Assembly: GCA_050258455.1 (NCBI GenBank)
Contig: JBLMYT010000061.1
Span: 41,049 to 105,048, forward strand
Reading direction: 5' to 3'
DNA length: 64,000 nucleotides
Origin: Candidatus Omnitrophota bacterium
GTDB lineage: Bacteria; Acidobacteriota; Aminicenantia; UBA2199
Part shown: positions 6,407 to 60,740 of the stretch, piece by piece
How positions within the stretch are numbered: the stretch's first letter is position 1
Layout: each line of letters starts with the position of its first letter
Position numbers and translations under genes: made by a program
The notes under the pieces: generated by a model
Told to the model about the DNA's origin: nothing
Database searches by the model: none
Seen by the model: the letters and a program-made list of their open reading frames with translations, nothing else

Positions 6407-9400
6407 CTATCTGTTTTGGCTACCGGAAATGGATATTCTATGGCAGTATTGTTTCATGATTTTAAGACCTTTTTCGGTCCAGTCGCTTTCTTGTTCCAGG
6501 TTTTCAAAGGAACATCCCTGAATCAATAGGCCCGGCACATTAATTATTTTCAATTCCGAAATACTCATATCGTTCGGTTCGTATACGGGGAAGTTTAGGG
6601 CATATTCTATTATATTAGTTCTTATGCATTTTCCAGTTTCCGCGTCCCATTCTTTGATGGTGTAATCACAGGAAGTTGAAAGGATGCGTTTCTCATCCAC
6701 ACGGTACACCGCGCTCCATACGTAATCTTCATGCCCGGTAATGGTCTTGATGCATTGGCCAGTTTCCGCATCCCACTCTTTGATGGTGCGGTCATGCGAA
6801 GCCGAAAGGATGCGTTTTCCATCGGCCCGGTACACCGCACTGTTTACCGCACCTTCATGCTCGGTAAGGGTCTTGACGCATTGCCCTGTTTCCGCGTCCC
6901 ACTCCTTGATGGTGCGGTCATGCGAAGCCGAAAGGATGCGTTTCCCATCCGAACGGTACACCGCATTAACTACTGCACTCGTATGCCCTGAAAGGGTTTT
7001 GAGGCATTGCCCGGTTTTCGCGTCCCACTCTTTGATGGTGTGATCATCCGAAGCCGTAAGGATGCGTTTTCCATCGGCGCGGTAAAACGCACTTCTTACA
7101 CCCCCCTCATACCCGAAAATGATCTTGATGCATTGCCCTGTTTCCGCGTCCCACTCCTTGAGGGTATGATCGCTGTAAGTGGAAATGATGTGTTTCCCAT
7201 CCTCACTATACTTCGCGCTTATTATATCACTTTTATGCCCTGAAAAGGTCTTGATGCATTGTCCGGTATCCGCGTCCCACTCTTTGATGGTGTGATCATC
7301 CGAAGCCGAAAGGATGCGTTTCCCATCAGAACGGTACACCATACTGGTTACTCTTTCTGCATACCCTGAAAAGGTCTTGATGCATTGTCCGGTTTCTGCA
7401 TCCCACTCTTTGATAGTGCGATCCGCAGAAGCCGAAAGGATGCGTTTCCCATCCGCACGATATACCGCGCTGTTTACTTCACCTTCATGCCCGGTAAGGG
7501 TCTTGATGCATTGCCCTGTTTCCGCGTCCCACTCTTTGATGGTGTGATCCGAGGAAGCCGAAAGGATGCGTTTGCCATCGGCACGGTACACCACGCTCCA
7601 TATAATATCGTCATGCCCGGAAATTGTCTTGATGCATTGCCCTGTTTCCGCGTCCCACTCTTTGATGATGCCATCCCGGAAAGCCGAAAGAATGCGTTTC
7701 CCATTCGAACTGTATACTGCACTGATTACCACATCGTCATGCCCGGAAAGGGTTTTGAGGCATTGCCCCGTTTCTGCATCCCACTCTTTGATGGTGCAAT
7801 CCGAAGCCGAAAGAATGCGTTTGCCATCGGCATGGTACACCACGCTCCATATAATATCGTCATGCCCGGAAATTGTCTTGATGCATTGCCCGGTTTCCGC
7901 GTCCCACTCTTTGATGATGCCATCCCGGAAAGCCGAAAGAATGCGTTTCCCATCGGCACGGTACACCACGCTATCTGCAGGTAAAAAATGCCCGTAAAGG
8001 GTCTTGTTGCATTGTCCTGTTTCCGCGTCCCATTCGTTGATGCCATCCCTCGAAGTCGAAAGGATGCGTTTCCCATCCGAACGATAGACCGCGCTTCTTA
8101 CCCAACCCTTATGCCCTGAAATTGTCTTGATGCATTGTCCGGTTTCCGCATCCCACTCTTTGATGGTGTGATCATCCGAAGCCGAAAGGATGCGTTTCCC
8201 ATCGGAACTGTATACCGCGCTTTTTACCCCCCCCTTATGCCCCTGGGGCAGCACATTCTTCTCATGCACCCGTGACCCTTCAAAATTTGCCGCTAAAAGA
8301 TACTGGTTATAATAATAACAACTGCATGTTACCCCATTCAACGATACTTCGGATAAATCAAGCCTCGTTAAATCCGCACCGGTTAATTCTGCTCGCACCA
8401 ATTTCCATATCTCCACTATATTCCATACGGCATAACCGATAGGATTCTCAGCCCCATTGAATTTACCCCGACATAAATCCAATGCCTGATGCAAAAAACT
8501 TTCTCTATTTATGTCAATCTTCCACCCCTCTCCTTCAACGATGTATGGCTTGACCCGGTGCTCCCCTTCAAACTCACCCATAAACCGGCGTACAAAATAA
8601 TCCAATACCCGCTCTTTCAATACGGAAGGTATCTCCCCCTTCTTGACACTCATCTCGACCTCATTCAGTACATGAACAGCGGCAAAAAAGTCACGGAAGT
8701 TCTGATGCAAAAACCGGTACATGCCTCTTTCTTCCACCAACATGGACATTTCCTGAATTAGGATCCCCCGAATTTTTGTATTTCTTTTCTTTATTTGCTT
8801 AAAATCCTTTAATTCTTCTACAGGAAGCACTTCAATAAATTTTTCATATTCGATAAATGTATCAAAAAAATCATTGTAAGAAAACCGAACGCAAAGCGCA
8901 TCGATATGCTGATCGAGTTGTTCTTTAGTAAACGCAAACAAACCGGCTTTCTCCATTTCATATCCCAACCCGGGCAGTAAAAATATTAAGAGAAATTTGT
9001 AATACGCAATCTGCTTTTCATCTTGACCCAACTTGTCCCGCCATACGGCCACCTGCGCTTGCATAAAGTTCCATAACAATTCACCGGGAGTTTCAACATC
9101 AGGTTTGAAATCACATCCCGGCGTATGCTGGTGGTTTTCCTGGATTTCGCATGACGCGGTATACAAGGTTAACATCATGGGGTTGCGGATTAAATTCTTT
9201 AATTCCGTTCCTTCCGGTAGGTTTTTTCTTATTTTTTTTAGATATTCAGCGATTTGGTGGTCTTCCAGCGGTTTCAACATCAACCCGCCCCAATGAATGA
9301 ATCCCCATTCTTTCCGGATGTCCCATCGGCCGGTAATCACAATCTGTACTCCCGGGTATTGTTCGGCAATGGTCTTGATTTCCAGAACCAATTGATTGTC

Positions 9401-23700: not shown

Positions 23701-25874
23701 CTCAGACATCGATTTTTATTTTGGATCGTTATATGGACCTATTACCGGTAGGTGTGCAAGGTGAGGTTTATATCGGTGGCTTCGGACTGGCCAGAGGATA
23801 TTTAAACAATCCCGAACTAACAAGCGATAAATTTATTAATATAAATAAAAATATAAATAAACAACCAAACAATCCCCAAAATAAAAGTTTTTGGTCCCAC
23901 CTTTTTTCAAAAAGGTGGGCCGCCGGAGGCATTGTCTATAAAACGGGGGATTTAGGACGATGGTTGCCGGATGGAGCGATTGAGTTCATGGGGAGAGTGG
24001 ATCATCAGGTGAAGATTCGGGGTTTTCGGATTGAATTGGGGGAAATTGAGAGCGTGTTGGTCAAGCATGAATCTGTTAAAGAAGCAGTGGTTGTTTCAAA
24101 GCAGGACCAGAAGGGGAGTCATCTGTATTTGATTGCTTATCTGGTCGGAGAACAAGAGCTAGAAGAGAAACAGATCAGGGAATACATGTCGAAGGAATGT
24201 CCGAGTCATATGATTCCCTCCTATTTTATTCCGGTTGAATCCTTTCCATTAACGCGAAATGGGAAGATCGATGTTGCTGCGTTACCGGAACCCGGGCAAA
24301 TGGCGAGCAAGAATTATGTGCCGCCTCAGAATGAAATCGAAGAAAAGTTAGCGGACATATGGTCTGAATTATTAAAAACGCAGCGCGATGTCATCGGCAT
24401 TGACGATAGTTTTTTTGAGTTGGGTGGGCATTCGTTAAAAGCGGCGCAATTGGTATCCCGGATGAAAAATGAATTGGATTCTTCCGTGACGCTTCCGGAA
24501 GTATTTAAAACGCCCACGATTCGGCAGTTGGCGGCGCGTGTTTCTGCCGGTTCGGATGAAAACATTGAAACCATACCGTTTGTCGAACAGAGAGAATATT
24601 ATCCCACATCTTATAGTCAACAGCGGATATGGAAGTTCCAGTCGAACCATCCCGGGAGTACGGCGTTCAGCCTTCACGAGCATATTCCGTTGAATCTTGA
24701 GGTTGATATCGATGTCATTCGACATGTTCTGGCCGAGTTAGCGAATCGGCATGAAAGTTTCCGAACCTGGTTTAAGGAAATCAACGGGGAACCCTTTCAG
24801 TTTATTGAACCGGTTGTAGAGATTCCCGTAGAAGTTATCGATATTTCATCCTTACCGGAAGAAGAGAGGGAAGCGGCCGTATCGAAAATTTATGATAATG
24901 TTGCCTTGAAACCGTTTGACCTTGGGCGTGCGCCATTGGTGGATGTCGTATTGGTAAAAAGGGAAAACCGGGTATGGGATTTCATATGGAATTTGCAGCA
25001 TATTATTACGGATGGGTATTCGCAGGACGTATTAAAAGATGAATTCATGGCGTTGTACACAGCCGCATTGGAAAAAAGACCTGCACCATTGGCGCCTATT
25101 TCCTTGACCTACAAAGATTTTGCCGTATGGCAGCGGCGCCGAGTCGGTCGTGCGGGAGACAAAGAAGAAGCGGTTCAATATTGGAAAACCAAACTCAAGG
25201 AAGGGTTTCCGGATCTTCGACTTCCGTTTGATTCGCGCCCGCCGTCGGATGACCTTCGGAGCATCCGGCTTCACACCTTTATACCTGAGAATATAAAAAC
25301 GGGTTTGGAAAAAATTATTGAAAAGCATCATTATACGCTGTTTATGGTATTACTGACCGCGTTTAATCTGGCGTTGCATCGATTGACCGGGCAGACCGAA
25401 ATTGCGCTCCGGGTTGTGAATGCCGGAAGGGAACGTCCTGAATTGCAACCGTTAATTGGGTATTTTGTTCACCCGGCGGTGGTCAAAAGCACGGTTGAAG
25501 GCGATGAACCGTTTATTGAGTTATTAACGCGAACGGCTGATAATGCCTTAAAGGTATTTCAATACCAATGGTATCCGTTGGAAGAAGCGGCCCGGGATTT
25601 GGGGATGAAAACACCGAACCTGTATATCTCTTTTAATATGCAAAACATCAGTGAAAGTCGGATTGATGCGGATGTAGACGTGAAAGAACCGTATATTACG
25701 GAGGATGAGAAGATAAAGGCCAAGTATCCGTTGAATGTACGGTTGATTGCGTATCGGAATTGCATTGGGGTTGTATGGGAAGCCCAAAAAGTGTTATTCA
25801 AGCCGCAAACGTTAAGAAAAATATTTGATGCGTATTTGGACGCGTTGGCAATCGCGGTTGGCGAAAAACCATAA
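17733..25874 (+). CDS. Non-ribosomal peptide synthetase, C-A-T-C-A-T-C
   Basis: C motifs: HHAIIDGWS, MHHIISDGVS (nt ~21643-21672), LQHIITDGYS (nt ~24992-25021). Two A domains: LAYVIYTSGSTGKPKG, YKTGDLGRW, KIRGFRIELGEIE, NGKIDV. Two T domains: FFELGGHSLKA. No TE or R domain. Confidence 0.95.
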   Translation: MSATKLPQDFEDLYPLTDIQKGMLFHSFSDSDRFVYYVVNVYYLNFKDFDANLFRRVFDLMVEKHSILRTGFNMHDFKEPVQIVYKTIIPDIVHHDISSMGKTEQDAYLERLISTEKTTAFDVLNAKALWRMRTVSLEGDRICFIWVAHHAIIDGWSFASLMTEVDNTYIRLKTDINFVPPKLRATYKHYVADQLAEKKKPENILFWKAELDDYKRLHFPGSSSITHESGRKMALTKDFDSGFSKRLTDVARTYNTSLKHLFFGAYVYMLSMLSYENDIVVGLITNCRPGFPDAEKIIGCFLNTVPVRLKIPAGLRWKDYILMVEAKLREIKKYDRYSFFEIVRTIGEMTQNQNPICDTIFNFTDFHVYDQMELGTSASSGPDHPMHDNHTDNGYRLLVLETDGTNTLFDFTISNSGGNFNLLLNFGEALVCSESAIALCRYFEKILYKFIEEPDCMISKEALITDEEKETLLFHFNRAGADDPSEKTISELFEDQALRSPDHLALIGSTSVGALREAPLKKSYWAVREPPLQMTYRELNERCNALTFKLMQQGVGPDSIVGIKMERSIEMIIGIMGILKAGGAYLPIDPSYPQERIDYMLNDSRAGLFLTGDTEVTENASGVFSEQVELGRIHVVDLFRRGAPACAPGQTHGSAPTENLPEYLNQASFPSVNSVSSVRNSNLAYVIYTSGSTGKPKGVLTMHRNVVRVVKNTNYIDIQPEDRVLQLSNVAFDGSVFDIYGALLNGACLVMIGKDEVIEIDRLARVIRQEQVTVFFSTTALFNTLVELRIDSLNRIRKVLFGGERVSIEHSRKALEYLGKGRIIHVYGPTETTVYASYYPIDEIKEKAMTIPIGKPLTQTSMFVLDRYMDLLPVGVQGEVYIGGFGLARGYLNNPELTAEKFIGCRLPVAGNLFPNQNNLNPPQNKSFWSHLFSKRWAAGGIVYKTGDLGRWLLDGSIEFMGRVDHQVKIRGFRIELGEIESVLIKHESVNEAMVVSKQDQKGSHLYLIAYLVVEQEIEEKRIREYMAKECPSYMIPSYFIQVESFPLTPNGKIDVKSLPQPDHASISTCNYVAPRDEIEKKLSDIWGEVLGIPNDRIGIEDNFFELGGHSLKATTMAAKIHKSLDIRISLGQVFKNPSIRGISEFIRGMQRNRFSSIEPVEMKEYYVLSSPQKRMYVLQQMEPGSVFYNIPEFIPMAGEVDIDRLEKVFQLLIQRHESLRTSFHMMGEEPVQKVHGNVEFRIELFLTVHTEDAEGEKKKLRSGEDEKLSIAERFIKRFDLAKAPLMRVGLLKGEKDYLLMIDMHHIISDGVSREVLKRDFVSIYNGEDLSPLRIQYKDFAEWQSGNSEREKRNQQEAYWVNEFEGEIPVLNITLDYPRPAVQSFEGSTFGFELDVEDIKGIRSIIKEENATIFMVLLAAYNILFMKLSGQEDVIIGTPVAGRVHADLEKIIGMFVNTLALRNYPAGEKTFRGFLRELKQQTLAAFENQEYYFEDLVERIALSRDVARNPLFDVMFALQNMGSDSVDASKTDENGGQESDSLYEGKTSKFDMTLHGVETGNRLLFKIEYCTRLFKRETIERFSRYFKQIISHGVKFPEDRLSDIVILTEEEKHRLLVEFNESGTDNPSDKTIPELFEDEVEKGPDRLAVVHSVVKITYKQLNEQSNVLAGILQEKGVGADTIVGIRMERSVELIIGILGILKAGGAYLPIDPSYPQERIDYMLNDSRAKLLLATEDTEFTEKIGGEVNFLFAAKEAEDNYRINIKYRINIKLIDGDSYQPSSYQSSSYPSSSYSSSPYPSFFSSVSSVNSVAKNLAYVIYTSGSTGKPKGVLTMHRNVVRVVKNTNYIDIQPEDRVLQLSNYAFDGSVFDIYGALLNGACLVMIGKDELIEMDRLARVIRQEQVTVFFSTTALFNTLVELRIDSLNRVRKVLFGGERVSIEHSRKASEHLGKGRIIHVYGPTETTVYASYYPIDEIKEKAVTVPIGMPLTQTSIFILDRYMDLLPVGVQGEVYIGGFGLARGYLNNPELTSDKFININKNINKQPNNPQNKSFWSHLFSKRWAAGGIVYKTGDLGRWLPDGAIEFMGRVDHQVKIRGFRIELGEIESVLVKHESVKEAVVVSKQDQKGSHLYLIAYLVGEQELEEKQIREYMSKECPSHMIPSYFIPVESFPLTRNGKIDVAALPEPGQMASKNYVPPQNEIEEKLADIWSELLKTQRDVIGIDDSFFELGGHSLKAAQLVSRMKNELDSSVTLPEVFKTPTIRQLAARVSAGSDENIETIPFVEQREYYPTSYSQQRIWKFQSNHPGSTAFSLHEHIPLNLEVDIDVIRHVLAELANRHESFRTWFKEINGEPFQFIEPVVEIPVEVIDISSLPEEEREAAVSKIYDNVALKPFDLGRAPLVDVVLVKRENRVWDFIWNLQHIITDGYSQDVLKDEFMALYTAALEKRPAPLAPISLTYKDFAVWQRRRVGRAGDKEEAVQYWKTKLKEGFPDLRLPFDSRPPSDDLRSIRLHTFIPENIKTGLEKIIEKHHYTLFMVLLTAFNLALHRLTGQTEIALRVVNAGRERPELQPLIGYFVHPAVVKSTVEGDEPFIELLTRTADNALKVFQYQWYPLEEAARDLGMKTPNLYISFNMQNISESRIDADVDVKEPYITEDEKIKAKYPLNVRLIAYRNCIGVVWEAQKVLFKPQTLRKIFDAYLDALAIAVGEKP
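19270..19289. repeat. GGGCGCTTC-GA-GAAGCGCCC palindrome, in frame (VGALREAP)
   Basis: Identical core to 2977-2996. Confidence 0.8.
19306..19325. repeat. GGGCGGTTCG/CGAACCGCCC palindrome, in frame (WAVREPP), followed by CTACAAA
   Basis: Perfect 10-bp arms. Differs from the intergenic GGGCGATTCG/CGAATCGCCC by one compensated pair. Confidence 0.8.
19563..19768 (+). repeat. Inverted-repeat-bounded insertion between A2 and A3 motifs, in frame
   Basis: Arms: cacaggggacacggaggtcacggag (19563-19587) and cctctgtgaactccgtgtcctccgtgag (19741-19768). Interior holds GGGCGCAC..GTGCGCCC (19655-19676) and GGGCAGAC..GTCTGCCC (19677-19698). Confidence 0.7.
20508..20554 (+). repeat. Hairpin element in A6-A7 loop, in frame (KSFWSHLFSKRWAAGG)
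   Basis: AAAAGTTTTTGG, then palindrome CCCACCTTTTT-TC-AAAAAGGTGGG (20521-20544), then CCGCCGGAGG. Confidence 0.8.
21468..21501 (+). repeat. CACGGAGGA-type 9-mer run inside the C domain, in frame (LTVHTEDAEG)
   Basis: tttctcacggtgcacacggaggacgcggaggggg, at the same C-domain position as 1716-1792. Confidence 0.6.
22929..23167 (+). repeat. Inverted-repeat-bounded insertion between A2 and A3 motifs, in frame, with different cargo
   Basis: Arms: gccacagaggacacagagttcacagag (22929-22955) and cctctgtgtcctctgtgaactctgtggc (23140-23167). Cargo: an 18-bp repeat (RINIKYRINIK) and five 15-bp repeats at 23061-23135 (SYQPS SYQSS SYPSS SYSSS PYPSF). Confidence 0.7.
23883..23929 (+). repeat. Hairpin element in A6-A7 loop, in frame
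   Basis: Same sequence as 20508-20554. Palindrome at 23896-23919. Confidence 0.8.
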
Positions 25875-40299: not shown

Positions 40300-42117
40300 T
40301 CAGAGCGAGCGCACCGGTCGCACGTACACGTTGTTACCGGGGTCCACTTTGTTCACATCTCCACTGAAAAAATCGATCACCCACAGTTTTTTTCGCTCAA
40401 ACGTATCCCCGGTCCAGATGTAGCGTTGGTCGGAGAAAAAAAGCGGATCAATGAACAAACCGTCACTCGATTCGGCACCTTCCATCAAGGATTCCAGTTC
40501 TTCCAGGGTGGGAAACCGCCAGTTGGAGTAGCCGACATATCCCTGTTGGTTTAACTCCGCCAGCCATTTTTTCGCTCGGGCCCAATTTAAGGATTGTTCG
40601 GATCCGGCTTGATGCCACATCAAACCGGTGGTCCGGTCAATCACGGCTTTCTCTTTCTTTACGGTGATTAATTCGAAATTATTTTTAAATTTTCCATCTT
40701 TATTGTAGTATTTGTCAAAGAAGCCGTATCGGGAGAGCATGGCTTTCACATCATTGGTTGTTAAATCCTTGTATTGAGACCGAAGGGTGATCGCACGGAC
40801 AGCGGGCGATGGCGGGGCAATGGCCGGAGACGGCGTCGGCGCAGGTTTTTCTTTTGAAATCTCTGCCGGAGTACGAACGGGGATTTGGGCCGGTTTTGTG
40901 GTACGGGCCTTGGATTTTGCTGTCGCCGGGCGAGGACGGGTGGGTTTGATGAGAATGGAGGGTTGATCGTTGGATGAATTTCTGGAAAATGGATTGAAAA
41001 ACAATAGAATAACGGCGATTAAAACCACAACCCCGACAATCGGAAGAATTCGTTTCACAGGAAGCGGCGTCAATGAGGGCAATTTGGAAAACCATTGGGA
41101 ACGTTCGGGAGAGGGGGTTTTTAATTTCGGGGGAGCAGTTGGTTTCTTTTGTTTAATGGCTTTTTGAGTGGAAGCCGGTTGTTCGGAAGGAACCTCGAGC
41201 GCTCGATGCTGTTGGCGTCGGTTTTCAGGGAGTTCATAACTCAAATCATCGATGGCCCGGATCAGTTCGAGAGCAGAGGAAAACCGGTTGTCTTTGTTTT
41301 TTTCCATCATCCGGTCCAGGAGCGGTTGGAAACTCGCCTGGTTATCGGGCAATTGAGGAATGGGTTCGATAATATGTTGATTTTCGATGGCAATCGGTTC
41401 ATCGGCATTGTAAGGGACGCTTCCGGTAAGCATTTCATAAAAGACCACCCCCAGGCTGTAGATGTCGCTGGCTGGCTCCAGGGGTTTGCGAAGGGCCTGT
41501 TCCGGGCTCACGTAGTGGGGTGAAAAGAACGTGAGTCCCTTTTTTTTCAACGCCTCAACGTGGGGGATGATGAGCTTGGATAAGAAGAAGCCATCGACAG
41601 CCGGCGTACCATCGGACCGAAACCGGATGGTTTCGGGAGTCAGGTCCATGTGAATCACGCCTTCTTTATGGGCGTAATCCAATGCCCAGGCAATGTGCTT
41701 GACGATATCGATGATTGTAAAATGGTCGAGCGATGAATCCGTTTCGGTATCGATGGCATTTGGTTCGGGAAGGTCGTCTCCGATTTCAAGCAAGGGGCTG
41801 ATATCCAGGGCATAGCAGCGGCTGATTTTATCGCGGAGGTTTTCCGGAAAATATTCGGTAACGATGTAATAATGTCCACCGGATTCCCCGGCTTCGAGAA
41901 TATTGGCGATATTGGGGTGAGTAAACCGACTTATTTTTTGGGCCTCCTTAAGAAAGCTGTCCCGAAAGGCTTTGTCTTCGAAAAAGAGGGGAGAAAGAAT
42001 TTTAATTGCGGTTTTTCGATCCAGATCTTCCTGAACCGCGAGATACACATCGGCGAATTTTCCCTGACCGAGTTTGCGTTCGATTTTATATCCGGGTATT
42101 AATGGAAAATAATCCAT
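40300..42117 (-). CDS. Ser/Thr protein kinase with TM segment, Pro-rich linker and C-terminal DUF1566 (Lcl C-terminal) domain
   Basis: Kinase: GQGKFADVY..AIK, IHMDLTPETI, DIYSLGVVFYEMLTG. TM: ILPIVGVVVLIAVILLFF. C-terminus: TGLMWHQAGS..NWRFPTLEELESL. Confidence 0.85.
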   Translation of the reverse strand: MDYFPLIPGYKIERKLGQGKFADVYLAVQEDLDRKTAIKILSPLFFEDKAFRDSFLKEAQKISRFTHPNIANILEAGESGGHYYIVTEYFPENLRDKISRCYALDISPLLEIGDDLPEPNAIDTETDSSLDHFTIIDIVKHIAWALDYAHKEGVIHMDLTPETIRFRSDGTPAVDGFFLSKLIIPHVEALKKKGLTFFSPHYVSPEQALRKPLEPASDIYSLGVVFYEMLTGSVPYNADEPIAIENQHIIEPIPQLPDNQASFQPLLDRMMEKNKDNRFSSALELIRAIDDLSYELPENRRQQHRALEVPSEQPASTQKAIKQKKPTAPPKLKTPSPERSQWFSKLPSLTPLPVKRILPIVGVVVLIAVILLFFNPFSRNSSNDQPSILIKPTRPRPATAKSKARTTKPAQIPVRTPAEISKEKPAPTPSPAIAPPSPAVRAITLRSQYKDLTTNDVKAMLSRYGFFDKYYNKDGKFKNNFELITVKKEKAVIDRTTGLMWHQAGSEQSLNWARAKKWLAELNQQGYVGYSNWRFPTLEELESLMEGAESSDGLFIDPLFFSDQRYIWTGDTFERKKLWVIDFFSGDVNKVDPGNNVYVRPVRSL

Positions 42118-53202: not shown

Positions 53203-54156
53203 TTACCATTTCTCGTAGATTTTAATATGACTATCCTTCTTTAAATCCTGGATAAAATCCTTCATCTTTTTATTTTCCTCTTCCTGCCTTAGTGTCCCTT
53301 CAATATCGTCCCGGACGCTTTTGTATTCCATAAATTGAGACTCCACTTTATTGGTCAATTGGAGGGCGTACCAGCCGGCCTTGGTCTCAATCCAGCCGCT
53401 GTGTTCTCCCTTCTTCAGGCCCAGCGCACTCTTTTCAAGCGCCGGATCGAGGTCTCCCTGTTTGAATTCACCCAGAAAAATTTCTTTATCCGGCAGTTCG
53501 GTATATTTTTTGGCCGTGTCTTCAAATTTCGACGCGGCGAGCTCGGCGTCGATGGCCTTCATTTTTTCCTGAAGCGAATCGGGAGTGGGATAATTGGATT
53601 TATTGAGAAAAATGCAATTGAGGGATACCTTGGCGGGCAAGGTGTAGTTTTGGATGTTTTTCTTATAGTATTCCATAATGGCCGAACTATCGATTTTGAT
53701 CTTGGAACCGATCATTTCATCGATATAGTGGCGCTGCATCTGGGTCTCCCTGGCCTGCTGCTTCCACTCTTCGAAATTTAATCCCTGAGAGGTCAGGGCT
53801 TGCTTGAGCTCATCGTCGGAATTGAGGTTATTCTCCTTTTTGACATTTTTAATGATCAGTTCCAATTCGCCATCGACATTGTAGTTTTTATCCTTTGCAA
53901 AAGAGAGAAGGACCTTCTGTTCGATCATGCGATCCAGAAGCGATTTTTTCATTTCTTCGATTTTATTTTGAAGCTCGTTGCCCTTATACTCCTGGGACAG
54001 GACCCCGGTCATCTGGATTTCGGTGCTCTTTAAATCCGTGTACGTAATCATTTCACCGTTGACAACCGCATATATCTTTTCAATAACCGTTGGCGCACCG
54101 GCGGCGTAAACACCGATGCTAAGCAGTGCCAGCGTTATTAGTATTCTTATTTTCAT
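53203..54156 (-). CDS. SurA-like periplasmic chaperone / parvulin-type peptidyl-prolyl isomerase
   Basis: Signal peptide. IYAVVNGEMITYTDL SurA-N-like start. C-terminal parvulin-like FEDTAKKYTE..LGEFKQGDLDPALEKSALGLKKGEHSGWIETKAGWYALQL. Confidence 0.75.
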   Translation of the reverse strand: MKIRILITLALLSIGVYAAGAPTVIEKIYAVVNGEMITYTDLKSTEIQMTGVLSQEYKGNELQNKIEEMKKSLLDRMIEQKVLLSFAKDKNYNVDGELELIIKNVKKENNLNSDDELKQALTSQGLNFEEWKQQARETQMQRHYIDEMIGSKIKIDSSAIMEYYKKNIQNYTLPAKVSLNCIFLNKSNYPTPDSLQEKMKAIDAELAASKFEDTAKKYTELPDKEIFLGEFKQGDLDPALEKSALGLKKGEHSGWIETKAGWYALQLTNKVESQFMEYKSVRDDIEGTLRQEEENKKMKDFIQDLKKDSHIKIYEKW

Positions 54157-55226
54157 TTTGAATCTCCTTCGTCATTCTCATTTTTTTGATAATTGAAGTT
54201 TAATTGGTTATACTCAACCGTCAGGTTTAAATTTTGTTTGGTGGTGCTTAGGAATTTTTGATAGGCATCTCTTATTTTTTCAGTCATCAGGATGTTTTGA
54301 ATATCCGGTTTGACTTTGTCGATGTAGAGCAAGCGTTCCTTTTTTTTGGATTCGACCTTGAAGATATGAAAGCCATACGTGGATTGAATCACCGGGCTAA
54401 TGGTGTTGGGGCTCAGGGCAAATACCACATCCTCCATATCCTTGGGGAGGGTGCCTTTTTCAAAAAAACCCATATCTCCGCCCTTATCCGCTTCCATTTT
54501 GGATTGAGACTCTTTTTTCGCCAATTCGGAGAATTTCTCCGGGTTGTTGGCGAGGATCCCCCGAATTCGCTCTGCCGTGTCTCGGTCTTTGACCAATATC
54601 TGGAATAAGTGAACTTCGGATTGTTTTCGGAACTGGTTGATGTTGTTGCGGTAATAGTCCTGGATTTCTTTCTCGGATACTTCGGTATTTTCATAGGCCT
54701 TATAGTACAAAAGTTTTTGCACTTTCACGGCATCCGAGATGGCGTTTTTATCGATGCGATCCTTGGGGATCTGGAGTTTGGCCAGCAATTTGTCGATTTC
54801 GTCTTCGCTTGCGGGAATGTGTTGTTGGGCAGCCGCATAAGAGAGGATTTTATGTTCGACAAAGGAATCAAACAAGCGGGACATAAACCGGGACGTATTG
54901 GTATACTGGGATTTGGTCGATTCCAGATTCGGGTAATTAATCCGCAGATAATTCCGGAAATCTCGGTTGGTGTATGTTTGGTTATTGATTTTAAGGATGA
55001 TTTTGGTGTCGCCAGGCGAAGCGGGAGAAGCCGTTCCGTCTTTGTCGTCTCCATTTTTTCCGGCAGGGTGCTTGCTCCCGGCGCATCCGATGTAAAACCA
55101 GAAAGCCAAACCGATCAATAGGATGTGTACCTTTTTTGTGCCCATATCTTCTTTTCGATAGTGATTCAATTTTATTTCTAACAGGGGATTATATACTATT
55201 TTTGCGTAACTTTCAAATATTTTCAA
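54153..55226 (-). CDS. Parvulin-type peptidyl-prolyl isomerase (PrsA/PpiD-like lipoprotein)
   Basis: Lipobox-like YIGC. HLFQILVKD..FSELAKKESQS..GGDMGFFEKGTLPKDMEDVVFAL..SPVIQSTYGFHIFKV. Confidence 0.8.
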   Translation of the reverse strand: MKIFESYAKIVYNPLLEIKLNHYRKEDMGTKKVHILLIGLAFWFYIGCAGSKHPAGKNGDDKDGTASPASPGDTKIILKINNQTYTNRDFRNYLRINYPNLESTKSQYTNTSRFMSRLFDSFVEHKILSYAAAQQHIPASEDEIDKLLAKLQIPKDRIDKNAISDAVKVQKLLYYKAYENTEVSEKEIQDYYRNNINQFRKQSEVHLFQILVKDRDTAERIRGILANNPEKFSELAKKESQSKMEADKGGDMGFFEKGTLPKDMEDVVFALSPNTISPVIQSTYGFHIFKVESKKKERLLYIDKVKPDIQNILMTEKIRDAYQKFLSTTKQNLNLTVEYNQLNFNYQKNENDEGDSK

Positions 55227-55287: not shown

Positions 55288-57156
55288 TTAACGGTAAGGG
55301 TTGGCGGGCAGGGCCAGATTCAAATACCGATCATCCATGTGTAACACCAGATCCTTTTCCATCAAATCGGCCAGTGTTTTCTGAAGCCATTCCACGTCGT
55401 CGTCAAAACGCTTGGTCAGGGCATCCCAACTGCTGGCATCATCCAGAAATTCAATCAACTCGGCTTCCCGATCCATATACACATACCGGCAGAGTACGCC
55501 GCTTCGGGTGTCTTCCACATGGACCGTGTCCACGGATTTGTGGTACCGCAGTTTGGGCCGACTCCCGGTTTCCCAGCGCTTTTTCCATTCGGCGACTTTG
55601 GAAAGGATGTTGCGATAATTGGATACCTCCGGCGTATTTCCGACTTTGTGCATGAAGTAATACGACACGTGCTGGAGGTCAAAGCGTTCCCCGGGAAAAA
55701 TGTAATTGTAACAATAGGCCGGGATCATATCGGATATGGCGTAATCCCAGCGATTCAGATACATCGGAGACCCCCGTTCGGCCCGTGCGCGCGTAATCGC
55801 GTAAGGCGGCTGAAAATGCGGAATTTTGGAAATGACCTTGCACTGCAATTCATAATCCTCAATGGTTTCACCCGGGAAACCAAAGAGAAGGTTATACAAA
55901 TCGACAATCCCATAGTAGGTACACCACTTGACGAATTCAATATTGCGAATACCGATGATGTGCTTCTTCATCAATTGGAGGATATGGGTGGAAAAGCTCT
56001 CGATACCGGGCTGAACGGAGAAGAGTCCCCCGCTTTTCAGGCGCTTTAACTGAGCCCGGGTGAAACACGGCCTCACTTCGTAATGGATCAGAAAGTCCGA
56101 CCGATTATCGGCCAGCCGACCGAACACCTTCTCAATGTACTCCGGGGCCATAATATTATCGATGGCATTGAAATACAGGTAATTGTACTTTCGGGAAAGC
56201 GTTTTGAGCATGCCCAACACATTTTCGGCACTCTTGCAGCGAAACTCCAAACCCGCGCGGTTCAAGCCGCAAAACGTGCAGTGATTTTTCATGCCCCACC
56301 AGCATCCCCGGGCGGTCTCAATCGGTAACATGGGATTTTTTTTGCCCGGAAATTGCGCAGAACTGTACCCGCTTTCCTTATAAGCGTAGAAGTACTCGTC
56401 ATAATCGGGAACCGGTGTGATGTCCATATTATTCAATATGGGAGACCTGCCATTGTAAATGATCTGGCCGTCTTTTCGCCACATCAAGCCCGGTAACCCC
56501 TCCATCGACTCGTCTCGTTCCAGCCGGTGGATCATCTCGGGTAAGGTCTTATCGGCATCCCCGCAATGGATGTAATCGATAAACGGGCACCCGGTCATGA
56601 TGCTTTCCGCAATGTCATCTTCGAAGGTTCCGCCGCCAAAAATAATCGGGATATGCGGGTAGCGTCCCTTAAGGGCTCGCGCCAGGGCAATACTGGACGC
56701 CATCTGCTGAAAGACCACCGAGAACCCAATCAGTTGAAAACGGCTCCAGTCGATGCGATTCAGGCAAAATTCAATAAACGAAAAGGTTTTGTTGTTTCGA
56801 ATTTCCAGGAGATCGTCGATCGTACAATCGGCTTGGTTGCACAGGTCCTCCAGGCTCTCCTTGTAGTAACTGATGTAGTCTTTGTCCTCGTTGAACTGAC
56901 CAAAGGCGGCTTTGGACCAGATCCACTCGCCGGCAATACAGGGGCGGGCCTCGGAGAGCACTTCATTGAGCGTATATCCGATATGCATCCCAAAGTACAT
57001 ATACATCGAAAAGGTCTGCACATCGATCCCTTCGCGCTGAAGGGTGGGTTTGAGTAATGCCAACTGAAAGGATGGCAAATAACCTGCCAATACCGGCATA
57101 CTGACCAATGCCGTCCGGATTTTGGTTGTTTTGTCTTCGTTTGATTCACCCATCAA
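55288..57156 (-). CDS. B12-binding-domain radical SAM enzyme of the RiPP-maturation C-methyltransferase type
   Basis: N-terminal ALVSMPVLAGYLPSFQLALLKPTL. IFGGGTFED B12-like region. Cluster motif ARGCWWGMKNHCTFCGLN (Cx7Cx2C, nt 56269-56304). From memory this matches the family TIGRFAMs names rSAM_ocin_1. Confidence 0.75.
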   Translation of the reverse strand: MMGESNEDKTTKIRTALVSMPVLAGYLPSFQLALLKPTLQREGIDVQTFSMYMYFGMHIGYTLNEVLSEARPCIAGEWIWSKAAFGQFNEDKDYISYYKESLEDLCNQADCTIDDLLEIRNNKTFSFIEFCLNRIDWSRFQLIGFSVVFQQMASSIALARALKGRYPHIPIIFGGGTFEDDIAESIMTGCPFIDYIHCGDADKTLPEMIHRLERDESMEGLPGLMWRKDGQIIYNGRSPILNNMDITPVPDYDEYFYAYKESGYSSAQFPGKKNPMLPIETARGCWWGMKNHCTFCGLNRAGLEFRCKSAENVLGMLKTLSRKYNYLYFNAIDNIMAPEYIEKVFGRLADNRSDFLIHYEVRPCFTRAQLKRLKSGGLFSVQPGIESFSTHILQLMKKHIIGIRNIEFVKWCTYYGIVDLYNLLFGFPGETIEDYELQCKVISKIPHFQPPYAITRARAERGSPMYLNRWDYAISDMIPAYCYNYIFPGERFDLQHVSYYFMHKVGNTPEVSNYRNILSKVAEWKKRWETGSRPKLRYHKSVDTVHVEDTRSGVLCRYVYMDREAELIEFLDDASSWDALTKRFDDDVEWLQKTLADLMEKDLVLHMDDRYLNLALPANPYR

Positions 57157-57204: not shown

Positions 57205-60057
57205 TTAATTTGCCAACAGTTTTAAAACGGCTGCCAGGGTATGTTGAACAAAATCGGTTCGGATGTCGCTTTGATACAGGCTGGCTCGAACGCCTCCCAA
57301 CGCCCACTCCGAATTGGGCAATATCGGAGCGTCTCGCTCCTGAATGATCAGGCGATCCAAAAAACCGACCCCTTTCAAACAGGCCTCCCGATACCGGTCC
57401 GCCCGTCTCCGTTCTCCCAAAACCGTCGCCAGTGTCGCCGCATCCCCCAGCCCTTCCAGGTACAGGGCCGTGGTAAACCCCGGCGTATCGGGTTGGTGAT
57501 CATTCCAAAAGCCGCCTCCTTTTTGATCCTGAAATTCCAGGATCCACTCGCCGATTTCGAAAACAAAGGCTGCAAATTCGGGTTCATGGGTGACCAAAAA
57601 CCATTCGCTAAAGGCTTGCATCATCCACGAGACCTGACCGAAATCACGCTTGTACCGAAATCGCCGACGGTAGAATTCAAAGGCACGCTGCAATTTTACC
57701 GCGTCCACCGTACTGATTCCGACCCGGCACGCCTTACCCAGCGCCAGCAACATCTGGCCCGGAAAGTAATCCTGAAACCCATCGTTGTCCATGGCAGGGT
57801 CTAAAAAGACCTCGACTTTACCGTGACGGTTGATGCGAGACCACAAGGTGTCGGCGATTTGAGACCCGATGGTCCGATATATTTCAACATCCGGCGAATG
57901 AGAAATCGCCAACAGCAAAAAGCTACTTTCCGAAACCGACGGGCTGTTGTCTTCCTGTTTGAGCCATACCTGGCCATGGGGATCCGATTCCACCAGGTTT
58001 AACAGATACGAAAGGAGTTTGGCCGAAGATTCCCGGACCTCCGAACGGTTGGTTTTTTCGCCCAGAACCATCAGCGCCCAACATGCGTGTGCCAGCCGCG
58101 GCAGGTCGACTTTTTCCGTGAGCGTGTCCGTGAAAGGGGAATAGTGAAAATACAACGCCCCATCTTCCTTTTGAAGCCGCAGGAGATAATCGGAAAGCAG
58201 CCGGGCATCGTACTCAAGGTTTTCTTCCGGATGATCCGAGGGGGGGGCAATGGGAAACATCCCCTTCATCATTCGGGGTTCCTGACCCGGCACCACCATC
58301 CAGGTTTGGCATTCGTACCGCCGCCAGTGATACGGCGGTCGGGTAATCCCGGCTTTATCGATGACCTCCAGGGCGTACGCGTCCGGCGTGAGGTTGAGTA
58401 ACGCGGCGGTAAAGGGGAGCAGCAGCCCGCTCCGCTTTCCTTGAGAGACCATGAGGGCCTGCTCACCGAAACGGATCCGGACCATGATCTCGTCGGGAGG
58501 AAGAACACCGATATCCAGCGGATCTCGGAGAAAGGAGACGGTCACTGCGGTGCAATTGGCTATCGGGGATTCCCCAAAGCGGGAATCGGCGATCACTTGG
58601 TGGCATATCGTTTGAAGATCCTCGTCCAGATGAGCGATCGTTGAGCCCATGCATCCTTTTAGTTTTCCCTCTTCATAAACGGTGACGAAAATCGAATCCA
58701 GATCCGTAAACATGAGATTATCCGGCAGAGGGTCGGTCGAGGGAGGCGTGTGAGCGAGCGTGGACGTCACCAGATCCAATGCCCGATGGGCAATCTTTCC
58801 TGCGGCCTGGAGATCGGCGTACCATTCCCAGGTATCGTGTTTGGGTACGCCGGTGGGTTGCCAAACTTCATTCGGTTCCACCACTTTGACCACATCGTGG
58901 CGGAGAATTCGGTAAGGCTCGAAACGAACAAGACCGGCGTTTTTGATTCGGGCATGTTGAAACTGCATCCAGGAATTGGAAATCCCGGGCATGCGGGGCA
59001 GGGCGCCCCCCATGACTCCCGGGCGTTCCCGGCTGAGTACCACAATCCCATACCGGTCATTATCCAGTTCACCCACCGTGCATTCTTCCATGGCGGAAAA
59101 AAACGTGACCGCAACCGCACTTTCTTGCAATTGCTTCTTTCCGGCGTCTCCCTTCTCCAACTTGAGGACCGTCTTTAACGCCGCCCGAACCAAATCTTCG
59201 CCGATCGGCCCAAAAGACTCGCCGGGAAAATGCCACATGCCTTCCCGAGCATGACGCTGGTAAATGTCGGACCGAGGACGGACGCTGACCCAAACCCCTC
59301 CCGCACCGTCAACCTCCCGATCCAGACTCAACGGCGGACGAAGAAGCGTCCCGGAATCCAGATACTCGTTCAGGACCAATCGGGCCAGAACGGCCGGATG
59401 CATTCCTTCGGGAGCATGCCGGTTATTCCAGGTAAAATCCGGGTAGAGTTTGGTCGGATTCAAGACCGGGCGGGGTTCATTTTCCATATGGACCATGACG
59501 TCTTCCCAGATATCAAAGAGGGCTTCCATATGATACCCCAATTCCTGCATCTTGCCAAACCCATTGTACCACCCGAAACGCACCAGGCAGACCCCGCCTT
59601 CGACACAAAAACCCTCCTCTTCCAGCCGTCTGCGGCATTCCAACATCGTCCGGCCCGAACTGATCGAGTCATCCACGATGATCACCGGTTCGTCCTTGTG
59701 GATTCGCCCTTCAATGGATTTGCGCGAACCATAGGTTTTGATTTCTTTGCGAACCAGGAGCCCTTCGTAACGCCCGTCCGACTGGAGGATGCAGGAAGCC
59801 ATGAGCGGGATCCCGATGGTGCCGTAGGTGGCCAGGGTATGCCCATTAAAGGTTTCCAGTAGTTTCAAGAGACAGCGGCCAGCCAGGCGAAGGCCTTCGG
59901 TTGTCAGGGACACGCCCAGGGAATCCAACATCCAGCGCGCCGGTTTTCCATCGCCCGACAGAACCGGACGCTCGGGCGTCCCGTAATAGATCCCGTCTTT
60001 AAGCAAAAGCGCCAGTAAACGGTTTTTTTCGTTTGAAAATTGTTCTTTTCCATCCAT
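57205..60057 (-). CDS. Fusion protein: type I phosphoribosyltransferase + two AMMECR1-like domains + C-terminal helical-repeat (alpha/alpha-toroid-like) domain
   Basis: PRTase PRPP loop VIIVDDSISSGRTM (aa 125-138). AMMECR1-like GKLKGCMGST..DSRF..GLLLPF, plus a degenerate upstream copy (GIVVLS..GGALPRMPG..ARIKNAGL). The C-terminal ~330 aa are helical repeats (domain assignment there is inference only). Confidence 0.7.
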   Translation of the reverse strand: MDGKEQFSNEKNRLLALLLKDGIYYGTPERPVLSGDGKPARWMLDSLGVSLTTEGLRLAGRCLLKLLETFNGHTLATYGTIGIPLMASCILQSDGRYEGLLVRKEIKTYGSRKSIEGRIHKDEPVIIVDDSISSGRTMLECRRRLEEEGFCVEGGVCLVRFGWYNGFGKMQELGYHMEALFDIWEDVMVHMENEPRPVLNPTKLYPDFTWNNRHAPEGMHPAVLARLVLNEYLDSGTLLRPPLSLDREVDGAGGVWVSVRPRSDIYQRHAREGMWHFPGESFGPIGEDLVRAALKTVLKLEKGDAGKKQLQESAVAVTFFSAMEECTVGELDNDRYGIVVLSRERPGVMGGALPRMPGISNSWMQFQHARIKNAGLVRFEPYRILRHDVVKVVEPNEVWQPTGVPKHDTWEWYADLQAAGKIAHRALDLVTSTLAHTPPSTDPLPDNLMFTDLDSIFVTVYEEGKLKGCMGSTIAHLDEDLQTICHQVIADSRFGESPIANCTAVTVSFLRDPLDIGVLPPDEIMVRIRFGEQALMVSQGKRSGLLLPFTAALLNLTPDAYALEVIDKAGITRPPYHWRRYECQTWMVVPGQEPRMMKGMFPIAPPSDHPEENLEYDARLLSDYLLRLQKEDGALYFHYSPFTDTLTEKVDLPRLAHACWALMVLGEKTNRSEVRESSAKLLSYLLNLVESDPHGQVWLKQEDNSPSVSESSFLLLAISHSPDVEIYRTIGSQIADTLWSRINRHGKVEVFLDPAMDNDGFQDYFPGQMLLALGKACRVGISTVDAVKLQRAFEFYRRRFRYKRDFGQVSWMMQAFSEWFLVTHEPEFAAFVFEIGEWILEFQDQKGGGFWNDHQPDTPGFTTALYLEGLGDAATLATVLGERRRADRYREACLKGVGFLDRLIIQERDAPILPNSEWALGGVRASLYQSDIRTDFVQHTLAAVLKLLAN

Positions 60058-60136: not shown

Positions 60137-60646
60137 TTATTTGGGTTGTCGAACTTCCGGGGCCACTTCGACGACAATGCCGGGGGGACCATACGGGGCA
60201 ACCTCCACCTGAACCGGTGTGATCCCGATTCGAATCGGCGCTATTTCGACAACCGGGTGATAGGGGACTGTTTCCGGTGCAATCTCGACAACGATCCCTC
60301 CCGGGCGACCCCAACCGGATGGGCTGGGCGCCATTTCCACAATGGGTTTCGGTCGCCAATACGGCGGCCCAACTTCCGTGGCCACTTCCGGATGAGGGCC
60401 AGGGTGTCTGACCTCATACCTGACCTCATATGCCACTTCCGGATGGGGCGGAATAAATACGGCAATTTCCGGATGCGTCGGCACCTGCGGTGCTATTTCC
60501 GGCATTATTTCGGGTGCTATTTCCACGATGATCCCCGAATGGATCGGCGCCCGATAATCCGGCCTTGCATTTTTTAACGTCGGTACATCCCCCTCAGGTG
60601 AAATTTTCCCTGATTTTGATACGACATTTGGTTTTTTTTCTGCCAT
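60137..60646 (-). CDS. 169-aa Pro/Glu/Val/Ile-rich repeat protein, candidate modified-peptide precursor
   Basis: Strong RBS AGGAGGAGGAG 5 nt upstream of the ATG. About 10 copies of [PV]E[IVM]A[PVYT] (VEIAPE x3, VEVAP x2, VEMAP, PEIAP, PEIAV, PEVAY, PEVAT). No signal peptide and no Cys. Confidence 0.65.
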   Translation of the reverse strand: MAEKKPNVVSKSGKISPEGDVPTLKNARPDYRAPIHSGIIVEIAPEIMPEIAPQVPTHPEIAVFIPPHPEVAYEVRYEVRHPGPHPEVATEVGPPYWRPKPIVEMAPSPSGWGRPGGIVVEIAPETVPYHPVVEIAPIRIGITPVQVEVAPYGPPGIVVEVAPEVRQPK

Positions 60647-60740
60647 CTTCTCCTCCTCCTAAAGGACTTTATTTAAATCATCTTTCATTTAAATAAGAAT
60701 CAAAAGTCCAAAATACTATAAATACTTTTTGTCCCACACG

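What the first reader, a model, noticed from the sequence alone, without database searches (positions are those of the whole stretch)
60137..60646. 169-aa protein built from ~10 copies of a [PV]E[IVM]A[PVYT] motif: candidate multi-core precursor
The sequence after a ~35-aa non-repetitive N-terminus (MAEKKPNVVSKSGKISPEGDVPTLKNARPDY) consists of motifs such as IIVEIAPEIMPEIAPQVP, HPEIAVFIPPHPEVAYEV, HPEVATEV, IVEMAPSP, IVVEIAPETVP, VVEIAPIRIG, VQVEVAPYGPP and IVVEVAPEVRQPK.

There is no signal peptide and no Cys. The RBS is very strong (AGGAGGAGGAG).

A leader plus repeated Val/Ile/Pro-rich cores would suit iterative C-methylation by the downstream B12-rSAM, as in proteusin-type pathways. A structural elastic or PEVK-like protein is the alternative.
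Basis: inference. Interest (0 to 1): 0.7.

Follow-up and report, generated by a model that had tools for sequence, protein, structure and literature searches.

The report
Tetrapeptide-repeat substrate of conserved enzyme cassette
The 169-residue repeat protein is a real gene and the likely substrate of two neighbouring enzymes, a B12 radical-SAM methyltransferase and a large uncharacterised fusion enzyme, in a three-gene set found in several bacterial phyla and not found in the papers or curated family libraries searched here.

Summary
Window 60137-60646 (minus strand) encodes 169 aa with 10 copies of [PV]E[IVM]A[PVYT]; composition-matched shuffles give 0.05 on average.

The gene belongs to a conserved three-gene cassette:
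- the repeat protein;
- a 950-aa fusion: OPRTase-like domain, unknown domain, AMMECR1, (alpha/alpha)6 toroid;
- a B12 radical-SAM enzyme of NCBIfam TIGR03975 (515 bits, cutoff 282).

I anchored searches separately on the fusion (80 genome loci), on the rSAM (80 metagenome loci) and on the repeat protein (3 contexts). The other partners were adjacent wherever the contig left room. The exceptions are two to three loci that lack the rSAM. Gene order differs between phyla, so the linkage is not inherited synteny.

The family-wide unit is a tetrapeptide, P-E-[V/I]-X. The window protein is a degenerate, Ala-rich member.

N-termini are not conserved and can be as short as 8 residues. No NHLP/Nif11 leader, RRE, protease or exporter is conserved. 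It is therefore not a proteusin, and the "leader plus cleavable cores" picture is unproven.

Most likely the enzymes recognise the repeat itself and modify it many times. C-methylation by the rSAM is inferred. A PRPP-dependent step by the fusion is speculative.

No paper or curated model searched describes the cassette.

The parts
60137..60646 (-). Repeat protein gene, 169 aa. Non-repetitive N-terminus (residues 1-40), then 10 x-E-[IVM]-A-x units within a degenerate P-E-[V/I]-X tetrapeptide array. Proposed substrate of the cassette.
   Evidence: ORF and motif statistics. Synonymous codon variation between copies. Homologous repeat ORFs beside the enzyme pair in 68 of 80 genome loci, 56 metagenome loci and the two nearest relatives. 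AF2 single-sequence model has mean pLDDT 32, so no stable fold is predicted.
60650..60660 (-). Shine-Dalgarno-like AGGAGGAGGAG, 3 nt upstream of the ATG.
   Evidence: Read directly from the sequence.
57205..60057 (-). 950-aa four-domain fusion enzyme, 79 nt downstream of the repeat gene. It is the most constant partner of the repeat protein.
   Evidence: Pfam AMMECR1 at 49.5 bits, above its cutoff of 25. Hundreds of full-length homologues at 50-60% identity. 569 cluster representatives at E<=1e-30. AF2 model with pLDDT 86.7 and pTM 0.83. Foldseek domain matches.
59458..60057 (-). Fusion residues 1-200: orotate-phosphoribosyltransferase-like type I PRTase domain.
   Evidence: Aligns with PDB OPRTases, including the flexible loop (VRKEIKTYGSRKSIEG against VRKEAKKHGMQRRIEG) and the PRPP loop (VIIVDDSISSGRTM). 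Both motifs are invariant in the family. Foldseek target-normalised TM 0.86 to 2p1z and 5hki. Scores fall below the PyrE equivalog and Pfam cutoffs.
58828..59445 (-). Fusion residues ~205-410: the most conserved segment (GGALPRMPGI and neighbours), of unassigned type.
   Evidence: Dense invariant columns. No Pfam or NCBIfam match. hhalign does not support homology to the AMMECR1 domain (probability 0.3).
58258..58815 (-). Fusion residues ~415-600: AMMECR1 domain with intact RGCMG and DxRF signatures.
   Evidence: Pfam and NCBIfam hits. PDB matches 1zq7, 1vaj, 1wsc. Near-invariant R467 and invariant G468, C469, G471, D491, R493, F494 match the proposed active site in PMC2034487.
57208..58245 (-). 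Fusion residues ~605-950: (alpha/alpha)6 toroid.
   Evidence: Foldseek matches to small class II terpene cyclases (8paj, 6sbg), GH88, GH76 and AGE-family epimerases, with target-normalised TM 0.6-0.7. Many invariant Arg, His, Gln and Trp residues.
55288..57156 (-). B12-binding radical SAM enzyme, 622 aa, 48 nt downstream of the fusion.
   Evidence: TIGR03975 at 515 bits, cutoff 281.85, full-length match. Pfam Radical_SAM is above its cutoff; B12-binding is just below. Cassette orthologues are 50-58% identical, while other TIGR03975-like paralogues in the same loci are only 25-29% identical.

Best explanation
The 169-aa ORF is a real gene. Its product is an intrinsically unstructured array of P-E-[V/I]-X tetrapeptide units, here mostly x-E-[V/I]-A-P. 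It is the ribosomally made substrate of a dedicated modification system encoded just downstream on the same strand.

Shown here:
- The three genes (repeat protein, PRTase-AMMECR1-toroid fusion, TIGR03975-type B12-rSAM) travel together across Acidobacteriota, Actinomycetota, Myxococcota and other lineages.
- They do so in three different gene orders.

Inferred:
- There is no conserved leader, RRE, protease or exporter, so the enzymes recognise the repeat unit itself and act many times along one chain.
- The rSAM installs C-methyl groups, most plausibly on the invariant beta-branched Val/Ile next to Glu, or elsewhere within the E-[V/I]-A-P unit.
- rSAM presence tracks the Ala-containing units that dominate the window protein.

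Speculative:
- The fusion has intact OPRTase catalytic and PRPP loops and an intact AMMECR1 Cys signature. It may carry out a second, PRPP-dependent step on the feature shared by all family members, the P-E-[V/I] core, possibly the Glu carboxylate. The toroid may bind the extended chain or process the sugar.
- The end product is more likely a long, poly-modified polypeptide than a set of excised small peptides.
For: Reality of the gene:
- Motif count is far above chance.
- Copies vary in synonymous codons.
- A strong RBS precedes the start.
- Gaps to the next genes are 79 and 48 nt on the same strand, with no terminator-like site in either gap.

Linkage anchored on the fusion (80 genome loci):
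- A repeat ORF is adjacent in all 68 loci that leave room. The other 12 loci are cut within 260 bp upstream.
- The rSAM is adjacent in every locus with room on the relevant side except L043, L053 and probably L036.

Linkage anchored on the rSAM (80 metagenome loci):
- 68 carry the fusion. The other 12 end within 350 bp.
- 56 carry a repeat ORF.

Linkage anchored on the repeat profile:
- All 3 contexts inspected carry both enzymes.
- The two closest relatives, L082 and L083, show the same layout.

Gene order differs (rep-rSAM-fus, rep-fus-rSAM, rSAM-fus-rep), so the linkage has survived rearrangement.

Enzymes:
- rSAM class assignment and a tight orthologous group.
- PRTase catalytic motifs.
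- AMMECR1 signature.

Substrate features:
- Family logo E-[VI]-x-P-E-[VI]-[A/R/K]-P-E.
- Loci without the rSAM have no E[VI]AP unit: naive Fisher p = 2e-4, or 2.7e-3 without L036.
- Extra tailoring genes sit beside the repeat gene in Acidobacteriota: a 2OG-Fe(II) oxygenase in 24 loci and a carbamoyltransferase in 15.
Against: - There is no expression or mass-spectrometry evidence. Every modification is inferred.
- No leader, RRE, protease or transporter is conserved. This is atypical for RiPPs and leaves the end product undefined.
- Type I PRTases normally act on small molecules, so the enzyme pair might make a small molecule while the repeat protein plays another role.
- One locus, L068, keeps the rSAM with pure (PEIK)n repeats. 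The rSAM-Ala link is therefore not strict, and it is not corrected for phylogeny.
- The window protein is a degenerate member of the family.
- The disorder call rests on a single-sequence AF2 run.
Confidence: 0.68

Rival explanations
1. Classical multi-core RiPP precursor. The N-terminal ~40 residues act as a leader. Each V/I-E-V/I-A-P unit is a core that is methylated, then cut out and exported as a small peptide.
For: - The adjacent rSAM belongs to a RiPP maturase family.
- The window protein and its two nearest relatives share an M-x-x-KKP-x-[IV]-[VL] start and a ~40-residue non-repeat N-terminus.
- Repeat number varies freely, as in known multi-core precursors.
Against: - N-termini are not conserved across the family, and many arrays start at residue 8-20.
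- There is no NHLP/Nif11 or RRE match.
- No protease or transporter is conserved next to the cassette in 160 loci.
- The units are contiguous, with no recognisable spacer or cleavage sites.
Confidence: 0.2
2. The repeat protein is an unmodified structural or spacer protein, a PEVK-, TonB- or procyclin-like extended rod or spring. It is merely co-regulated with two enzymes that act on something else, such as a nucleotide-like small molecule.
For: - The composition is Pro/Glu/Val/Ile-rich, many relatives are polyampholytes, and no fold is predicted.
- The PRTase domain resembles small-molecule enzymes.
- Some relatives attach the array to globular domains.
Against: - The strict three-gene linkage has survived gene-order changes across phyla.
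- The rSAM belongs to a peptide-modifying family.
- Repeat sequence type co-varies with rSAM presence.
- No signal peptide or anchoring domain is present, read directly from the sequence.
Confidence: 0.1
3. The ORF is spurious, and the opposite-strand ORF (60146-60577) or no ORF at all is the real feature.
For: A 143-aa antisense ORF exists.
Against: - Each antisense frame has 4-5 stops across the gene in the window.
- In 69 homologues one antisense frame is fully open in 31 and another in 23, which is the pattern expected from E/P/V/I/A codon composition.
- Only the sense frame carries the conserved motif, the RBS and the operon orientation.
Confidence: 0.02

Closest known systems
Proteusins (polytheonamide PoyA with the B12-rSAM C-methyltransferases PoyB/PoyC)
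   Same: A ribosomal peptide rich in Val/Ile sits next to a TIGR03975-class B12-rSAM. From my own knowledge, that class makes tert-leucine and beta-methyl-Ile by repeated C-methylation.
   Different: No NHLP/Nif11 leader. No rSAM epimerase or other Poy-type partner. The substrate is a 4-residue repeat array. The partner is a PRTase-AMMECR1-toroid fusion. The cassette rSAM is only 25-29% identical to other TIGR03975-like paralogues in the same loci.
Repeat-motif rSAM substrates: TvgA (TVGG repeats, poly-cyclopropylglycine, rSAM-SPASM TvgB; PMC10878394, seen). From my own knowledge also Haft's HxsA (His-Xaa-Ser repeats) and GrrA (Gly-rich repeats).
   Same: A short motif is repeated many times in a small protein encoded beside a radical SAM enzyme. 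Recognition is motif-level and modification is iterative.
   Different: Those systems use SPASM-type rSAMs and generally have a leader. This one uses a B12-type rSAM plus an unrelated large fusion enzyme, and has no conserved leader.
AmmeMemoRadiSam system (TIGR04335-04337) and the AMMECR1 family
   Same: An AMMECR1 domain with the RGChG and DxRa signature is genetically tied to a radical SAM enzyme.
   Different: No MEMO1/LigB-like partner. The rSAM is a B12 class-B enzyme, not an activase-like one. AMMECR1 is embedded in a four-domain fusion. A candidate protein substrate is encoded alongside. The TIGR04335 score of 50 is far below its cutoff of 99.
Titin PEVK segment, TonB Pro-rich spacer, trypanosome procyclin EP repeats
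   Same: Pro/Glu/Val(Ile)/Lys-rich, low-complexity, probably extended and unstructured. A canonical relative gives a weak sub-threshold hit to procyclin.
   Different: No homology. The period is 4 residues with an invariant Glu-[V/I] pair. The gene sits in an enzyme cassette and encodes no secretion or anchoring signal.

Membership tests
RiPP precursor (general definition) | Small ribosomal peptide encoded next to its modifying enzyme(s) | tested here: met
   The repeat gene is adjacent to the rSAM and fusion in all loci with room, apart from two to three loci that lack the rSAM.
RiPP precursor (general definition) | Conserved leader or follower, or an RRE on an enzyme, that guides recognition | tested here: not met
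   N-termini are unrelated between clades and can be 8-12 residues long. No RRE/PqqD-like, NHLP or Nif11 match on any cassette protein.
RiPP precursor (general definition) | Dedicated protease and/or exporter in the cluster | tested here: not met
   Neighbour clustering of 81 loci finds none conserved beyond the three genes. An RND pump follows the cassette only in Thiothrix L053.
RiPP precursor (general definition) | The peptide is actually post-translationally modified | not testable with these tools
   Needs mass spectrometry of the co-expressed or native protein.
Proteusin | Nitrile-hydratase-like (NHLP, TIGR03793) or Nif11-type leader | tested here: not met
   No NCBIfam or Pfam hit at E<=0.01 for the window protein, or at E<=1 for 7 relatives.
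Proteusin | B12-rSAM C-methyltransferase of the PoyB/C class | tested here: met
   TIGR03975 at 515 bits, cutoff 281.85.
Proteusin | Radical SAM epimerase (PoyD-like) in the cluster | tested here: not met
   The only rSAM in the window cassette is the B12 enzyme.
TIGR03975 RiPP maturation rSAM C-methyltransferase (the 622-aa protein) | Full-length HMM match above the curated cutoff; B12-binding and radical SAM domains; Cys triad | tested here: met
   Model positions 2-606 of 606 are matched. Radical_SAM scores 42.8 against a cutoff of 29.5; B12-binding scores 30.4, just under its cutoff of 32.1. C285, C293 and C296 are invariant. Methyltransferase activity was not tested.
AMMECR1 (PF01871) | HMM above the gathering score, plus the RGChG and DxRa motifs | tested here: met
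   49.5 bits against a cutoff of 25. R467 is near-invariant; G468, C469, G471, D491, R493 and F494 are invariant in 20 sequences. Motifs as defined in PMC2034487.
Orotate phosphoribosyltransferase (PyrE) | Equivalog-level HMM score | tested here: not met
   TIGR00336 scores 48.7 bits against a cutoff of 106.8. Pfam Pribosyltran scores 19.6 against 26.3.
Orotate phosphoribosyltransferase (PyrE) | Type I PRTase fold with PRPP loop and catalytic flexible loop | tested here: met
   Target-normalised TM 0.86. The VRKExKxxG and DDSISSG motifs align with OPRTases and are invariant. The acceptor substrate is unknown.
PEVK-type elastic protein | Homology to, or the ~28-residue PPAK repeat organisation of, titin PEVK | tested here: not met
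   No Pfam match. The period is 4 residues, not ~28.

The most novel reading that the evidence does not exclude
The cassette makes a new kind of ribosomal polymer. A leaderless P-E-[V/I]-X tetrapeptide array is modified at every unit. The B12-rSAM adds C-methyl groups. A PRPP-dependent enzyme transfers phosphoribosyl, or a derivative processed by the toroid and AMMECR1 domains, to the invariant Glu. This would be the first biochemical function and first defined substrate for an AMMECR1 domain.
Probability: 0.15. Interest if true: 0.92.

Novelty: new variant of a known kind. Interest (0 to 1): 0.74.

Why it matters
- **A new, widespread pairing.** A radical-SAM RiPP-type maturase is paired with an enzyme architecture never linked to peptides (OPRTase-like + AMMECR1 + toroid) and with an unusual leaderless tetrapeptide-repeat substrate. 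The fusion family has 569 representatives at 50% clustering with E<=1e-30, mostly from soil Acidobacteriota.
- **A handle on AMMECR1.** In the AMMECR1 papers this library returned, no reaction is assigned; the 2007 RAGNYA-fold analysis (PMC2034487) calls it uncharacterised. The domain is conserved from archaea to humans. Here it comes with a candidate protein substrate encoded next door, so its chemistry can be tested by co-expression and mass spectrometry.
- **A tractable organism.** A cultured carrier exists: Blastococcus deserti CGMCC 1.15935.
- **Annotation.** BGC-mining tools that key on TIGR03975 would flag these loci without recognising the precursor or the second enzyme.

Tried and rejected
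- **Word-index homology search with the window protein alone.** It found only itself. The family became visible only through the neighbouring enzymes and then a profile.
- **First genome scan with the single 950-aa sequence.** It found nothing. An alignment was needed.
- **Intergenic hairpin between the repeat gene and the fusion as an attenuator.** Its fold energy is no better than shuffles, z = -0.11. Rejected.
- **Promoter and terminator scans.** Counts are at chance level. Uninformative.
- **Fusion residues 205-410 as a second, Cys-less AMMECR1 copy.** I suspected this by eye. hhalign gives probability 0.3. Not claimed.
- **The two PPIase/SurA genes downstream as cassette members acting on a Pro-rich substrate.** They are not conserved in any other locus. 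Rejected.
- **P0151 as a natural repeat-PRTase fusion (Rosetta stone).** In its contig the fusion and rSAM genes are broken into fragments, so this is probably a frameshift artefact. Not used as evidence.
- **PDB sequence search with the rSAM.** No hit.
- **Rfam.** Only a distant tRNA; no riboswitch near the cassette.
- **Literature.** Nine searches found nothing on the cassette, including AMMECR1 + radical SAM + RiPP, TIGR03975, and the motif strings themselves.
- **Source organism of the window.** Not determined.

Full report
**1. The observation**

Window 60137-60646 holds a 169-codon ORF on the minus strand. Its product has 10 matches to [PV]E[IVM]A[PVYT], starting at residue 41. In 20,000 residue shuffles the mean count is 0.05 and the maximum is 2.

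The protein is P33, V24, E18, I17, A13 and has no Cys. AGGAGGAGGAG lies at 60650-60660, 3 nt before the ATG.

The ten copies use varied synonymous codons, and at DNA level only two weak 12-nt tandem arrays are found. The repeat is therefore conserved as protein, not as recently duplicated DNA.

A single-sequence AlphaFold run predicts no fold, with mean pLDDT 32. This is weak evidence, as only one sequence was used.

**2. The neighbourhood**

Three genes lie on the same strand:
- the repeat gene;
- 79 nt later, a 950-aa ORF (57205-60057);
- 48 nt later, a 622-aa ORF (55288-57156).

The 622-aa protein matches NCBIfam TIGR03975, "RiPP maturation radical SAM C-methyltransferase". The match is end to end at 515 bits, against a cutoff of 282.

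The 950-aa protein has four parts:
- **OPRTase-like domain.** It keeps the OPRTase flexible loop (VRKEIKTYGSRKSIEG) and the PRPP loop (VIIVDDSISSGRTM). Both are invariant in 20 homologues.
- **Unassigned segment (~205-410).** It is very conserved and matches no known family.
- **AMMECR1 domain.** The RGCMG and DxRF motifs are intact. Balaji and Aravind proposed these as the active site.
- **(alpha/alpha)6 toroid.** It resembles small class II terpene cyclases, GH76/GH88 and AGE epimerases.

The AF2 model is confident, with pLDDT 86.7 and pTM 0.83.

**3. Is the linkage real?**

The window protein alone finds no homologue by word search. The fusion, however, has hundreds of full-length homologues at 50-60% identity. 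It has 569 representatives at 50% clustering with E<=1e-30.

I tested the linkage from three independent anchors.

*Anchored on the fusion.* I fetched 80 genome loci.
- The rSAM orthologue is adjacent in every locus with room on the relevant side, except L043, L053 and probably L036.
- A Pro/Glu/Val/Ile-rich repeat ORF of 57-430 aa flanks the pair in all 68 loci with room.
- The 12 loci without one are cut within 260 bp upstream.

*Anchored on the rSAM.* I fetched 80 metagenome loci.
- 68 carry the fusion, and the other 12 end within 350 bp.
- 56 carry the repeat ORF, and the remainder lack room on the relevant side.

*Anchored on a profile of the repeat proteins.* This gave 62 hits. All three contexts inspected contain both enzymes.

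The two nearest relatives of the window cassette, L082 and L083, have the same rep-fus-rSAM layout.

Three gene orders occur:
- rep-rSAM-fus in most Acidobacteriota;
- rep-fus-rSAM in the window, Actinomycetota and Myxococcota;
- rSAM-fus-rep in Bryobacterales and Acidobacteriaceae.

The association has therefore survived rearrangement. Cassette rSAMs are 50-58% identical to the window enzyme. Other TIGR03975-like paralogues in the same loci are only 25-29% identical, so this is a dedicated orthologous group.

**4. What the repeat really is**

Across about 1,500 sites the logo around each Glu is E-[VI]-x-P-**E**-[VI]-[A/R/K]-P-E. Glu-to-Glu spacing is enriched at 4, 8, 12 and 16 residues. The unit is a tetrapeptide, P-E-[V/I]-X.

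Variants range from pure (PEIR)n and (PEIK)n through PIPEVAPEIRP to EVITEVAPE. The window protein is a degenerate member in which X is mostly Ala.

N-termini are unrelated between clades. In many members the array starts at residue 8-20. Only the two nearest relatives share the window's M-x-x-KKP-x-[IV]-[VL] start.

None of the repeat proteins matches Pfam or NCBIfam. The one exception is a sub-threshold procyclin hit.

**5. Comparative hints to mechanism**

The loci that lack the rSAM are Thiothrix L053, Myxococcaceae L043 and probably Bryobacteraceae L036. None of them has an E[VI]AP unit. Of the 65 rSAM-positive loci, 63 have such units. Naive Fisher p = 2e-4, or 2.7e-3 without L036.

L068 is an exception: it keeps the rSAM with pure PEIK repeats. 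The test also ignores phylogeny.

My reading is that the fusion serves the common P-E-[V/I] core, and the rSAM is tied to the Ala-type unit that dominates the window protein.

Accessory tailoring genes occur only in Acidobacteriota. A 2OG-Fe(II) oxygenase (PF13640) lies directly upstream of the repeat gene in 24 loci, and a carbamoyltransferase is present in 15. This fits a Pro-rich chain that is chemically decorated.

No protease or transporter is conserved.

**6. Interpretation**

What is shown is a conserved three-gene unit with a repeat protein at its centre.

What is inferred is that the repeat protein is the substrate and is recognised through its own motif. C-methylation by the rSAM follows from the known chemistry of the PoyB/PoyC class, which I cite from my own knowledge. 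The Val/Ile next to Glu is the natural candidate site.

What is speculative is that the fusion uses PRPP on the invariant Glu.

The product may remain a long modified polypeptide. Some relatives attach the array to globular or DUF1843 domains, which favours a modified-protein reading over excised peptides.

The antisense ORF is a by-product of composition.

**7. Comparison and novelty**

- It works like a repeat-motif rSAM system of the TvgA, HxsA or GrrA type, and it uses a proteusin-class methyltransferase.
- It fails the proteusin test (no NHLP/Nif11 leader, no epimerase).
- It fails the classical RiPP criteria of leader, RRE, protease and exporter.
- Nine literature searches and the NCBIfam (June 2026) and Pfam libraries hold nothing on the cassette.

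I rate it a new variant of a known kind. It has high follow-up value because it offers AMMECR1 a candidate substrate.

Noticed in passing
L007:6458-7090 (and 23 other Acidobacteriota loci); L010:5034-6710: A 2OG-Fe(II) oxygenase (PF13640, prolyl-hydroxylase-like) lies directly upstream of the repeat gene in 24 loci. A carbamoyltransferase lies upstream of that in 15. These are possible extra tailoring steps (hydroxylation, then O-carbamoylation). Both are absent from the window.
   Followed up: partly
L087:7001-9414; L007:3648-6117: Small DUF1843 proteins (K-rich N-terminus, PPYG...ARGD...EM helix domain) plus an rSAM-SPASM enzyme form a second system often beside the cassette in Acidobacteriota. 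Some repeat proteins (P0147, P0134, P0173) carry a C-terminal DUF1843 domain, which links the two systems.
   Followed up: partly
P0122, P0127, P0128, P0136, P0155 (L085:7001-8059): Some repeat proteins have a ~190-aa conserved N-terminal globular domain (MARSVRLASRQS...GGFAGFHHLFVR) with no Pfam match, placed before the EVAP array.
   Followed up: partly
L053:9050-16108: Thiothrix variant. The repeat is pure PE[IV][KR] with an ~85-aa Ser/Gly/Asn-rich N-terminus. There is no rSAM within 10 kb, and an AcrB-type RND pump lies directly downstream of the fusion.
   Followed up: partly
L044:~19050-19860: A second repeat-protein gene, (PEIRPEIK)n ending in EVIVEVAPEKREKPGS, lies about 6 kb from the cassette in a Bryobacterales MAG.
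   Followed up: no
L168:6001-10947: The cassette is broken into fragments: the fusion into three ORFs and the rSAM into two. The apparent repeat-PRTase fusion protein P0151 is probably a frameshift or assembly artefact or a pseudogene.
   Followed up: partly
window 53203-55226 (-): Two SurA/PpiC-type peptidyl-prolyl isomerase genes follow the rSAM on the same strand. They are not found next to the cassette in any other locus.
   Followed up: yes
window 17733-25874 (+): A 2713-aa non-ribosomal peptide synthetase with condensation, adenylation and carrier domains. The 2121-aa ORF at 9-6374 was not examined.
   Followed up: partly
window 6407-10534 (-): A 1375-aa protein whose C-terminal part carries about 12 WD40 repeats.
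   Followed up: no
window 40300-42117 (-): A Ser/Thr protein kinase with a C-terminal Lcl_C domain.
   Followed up: no
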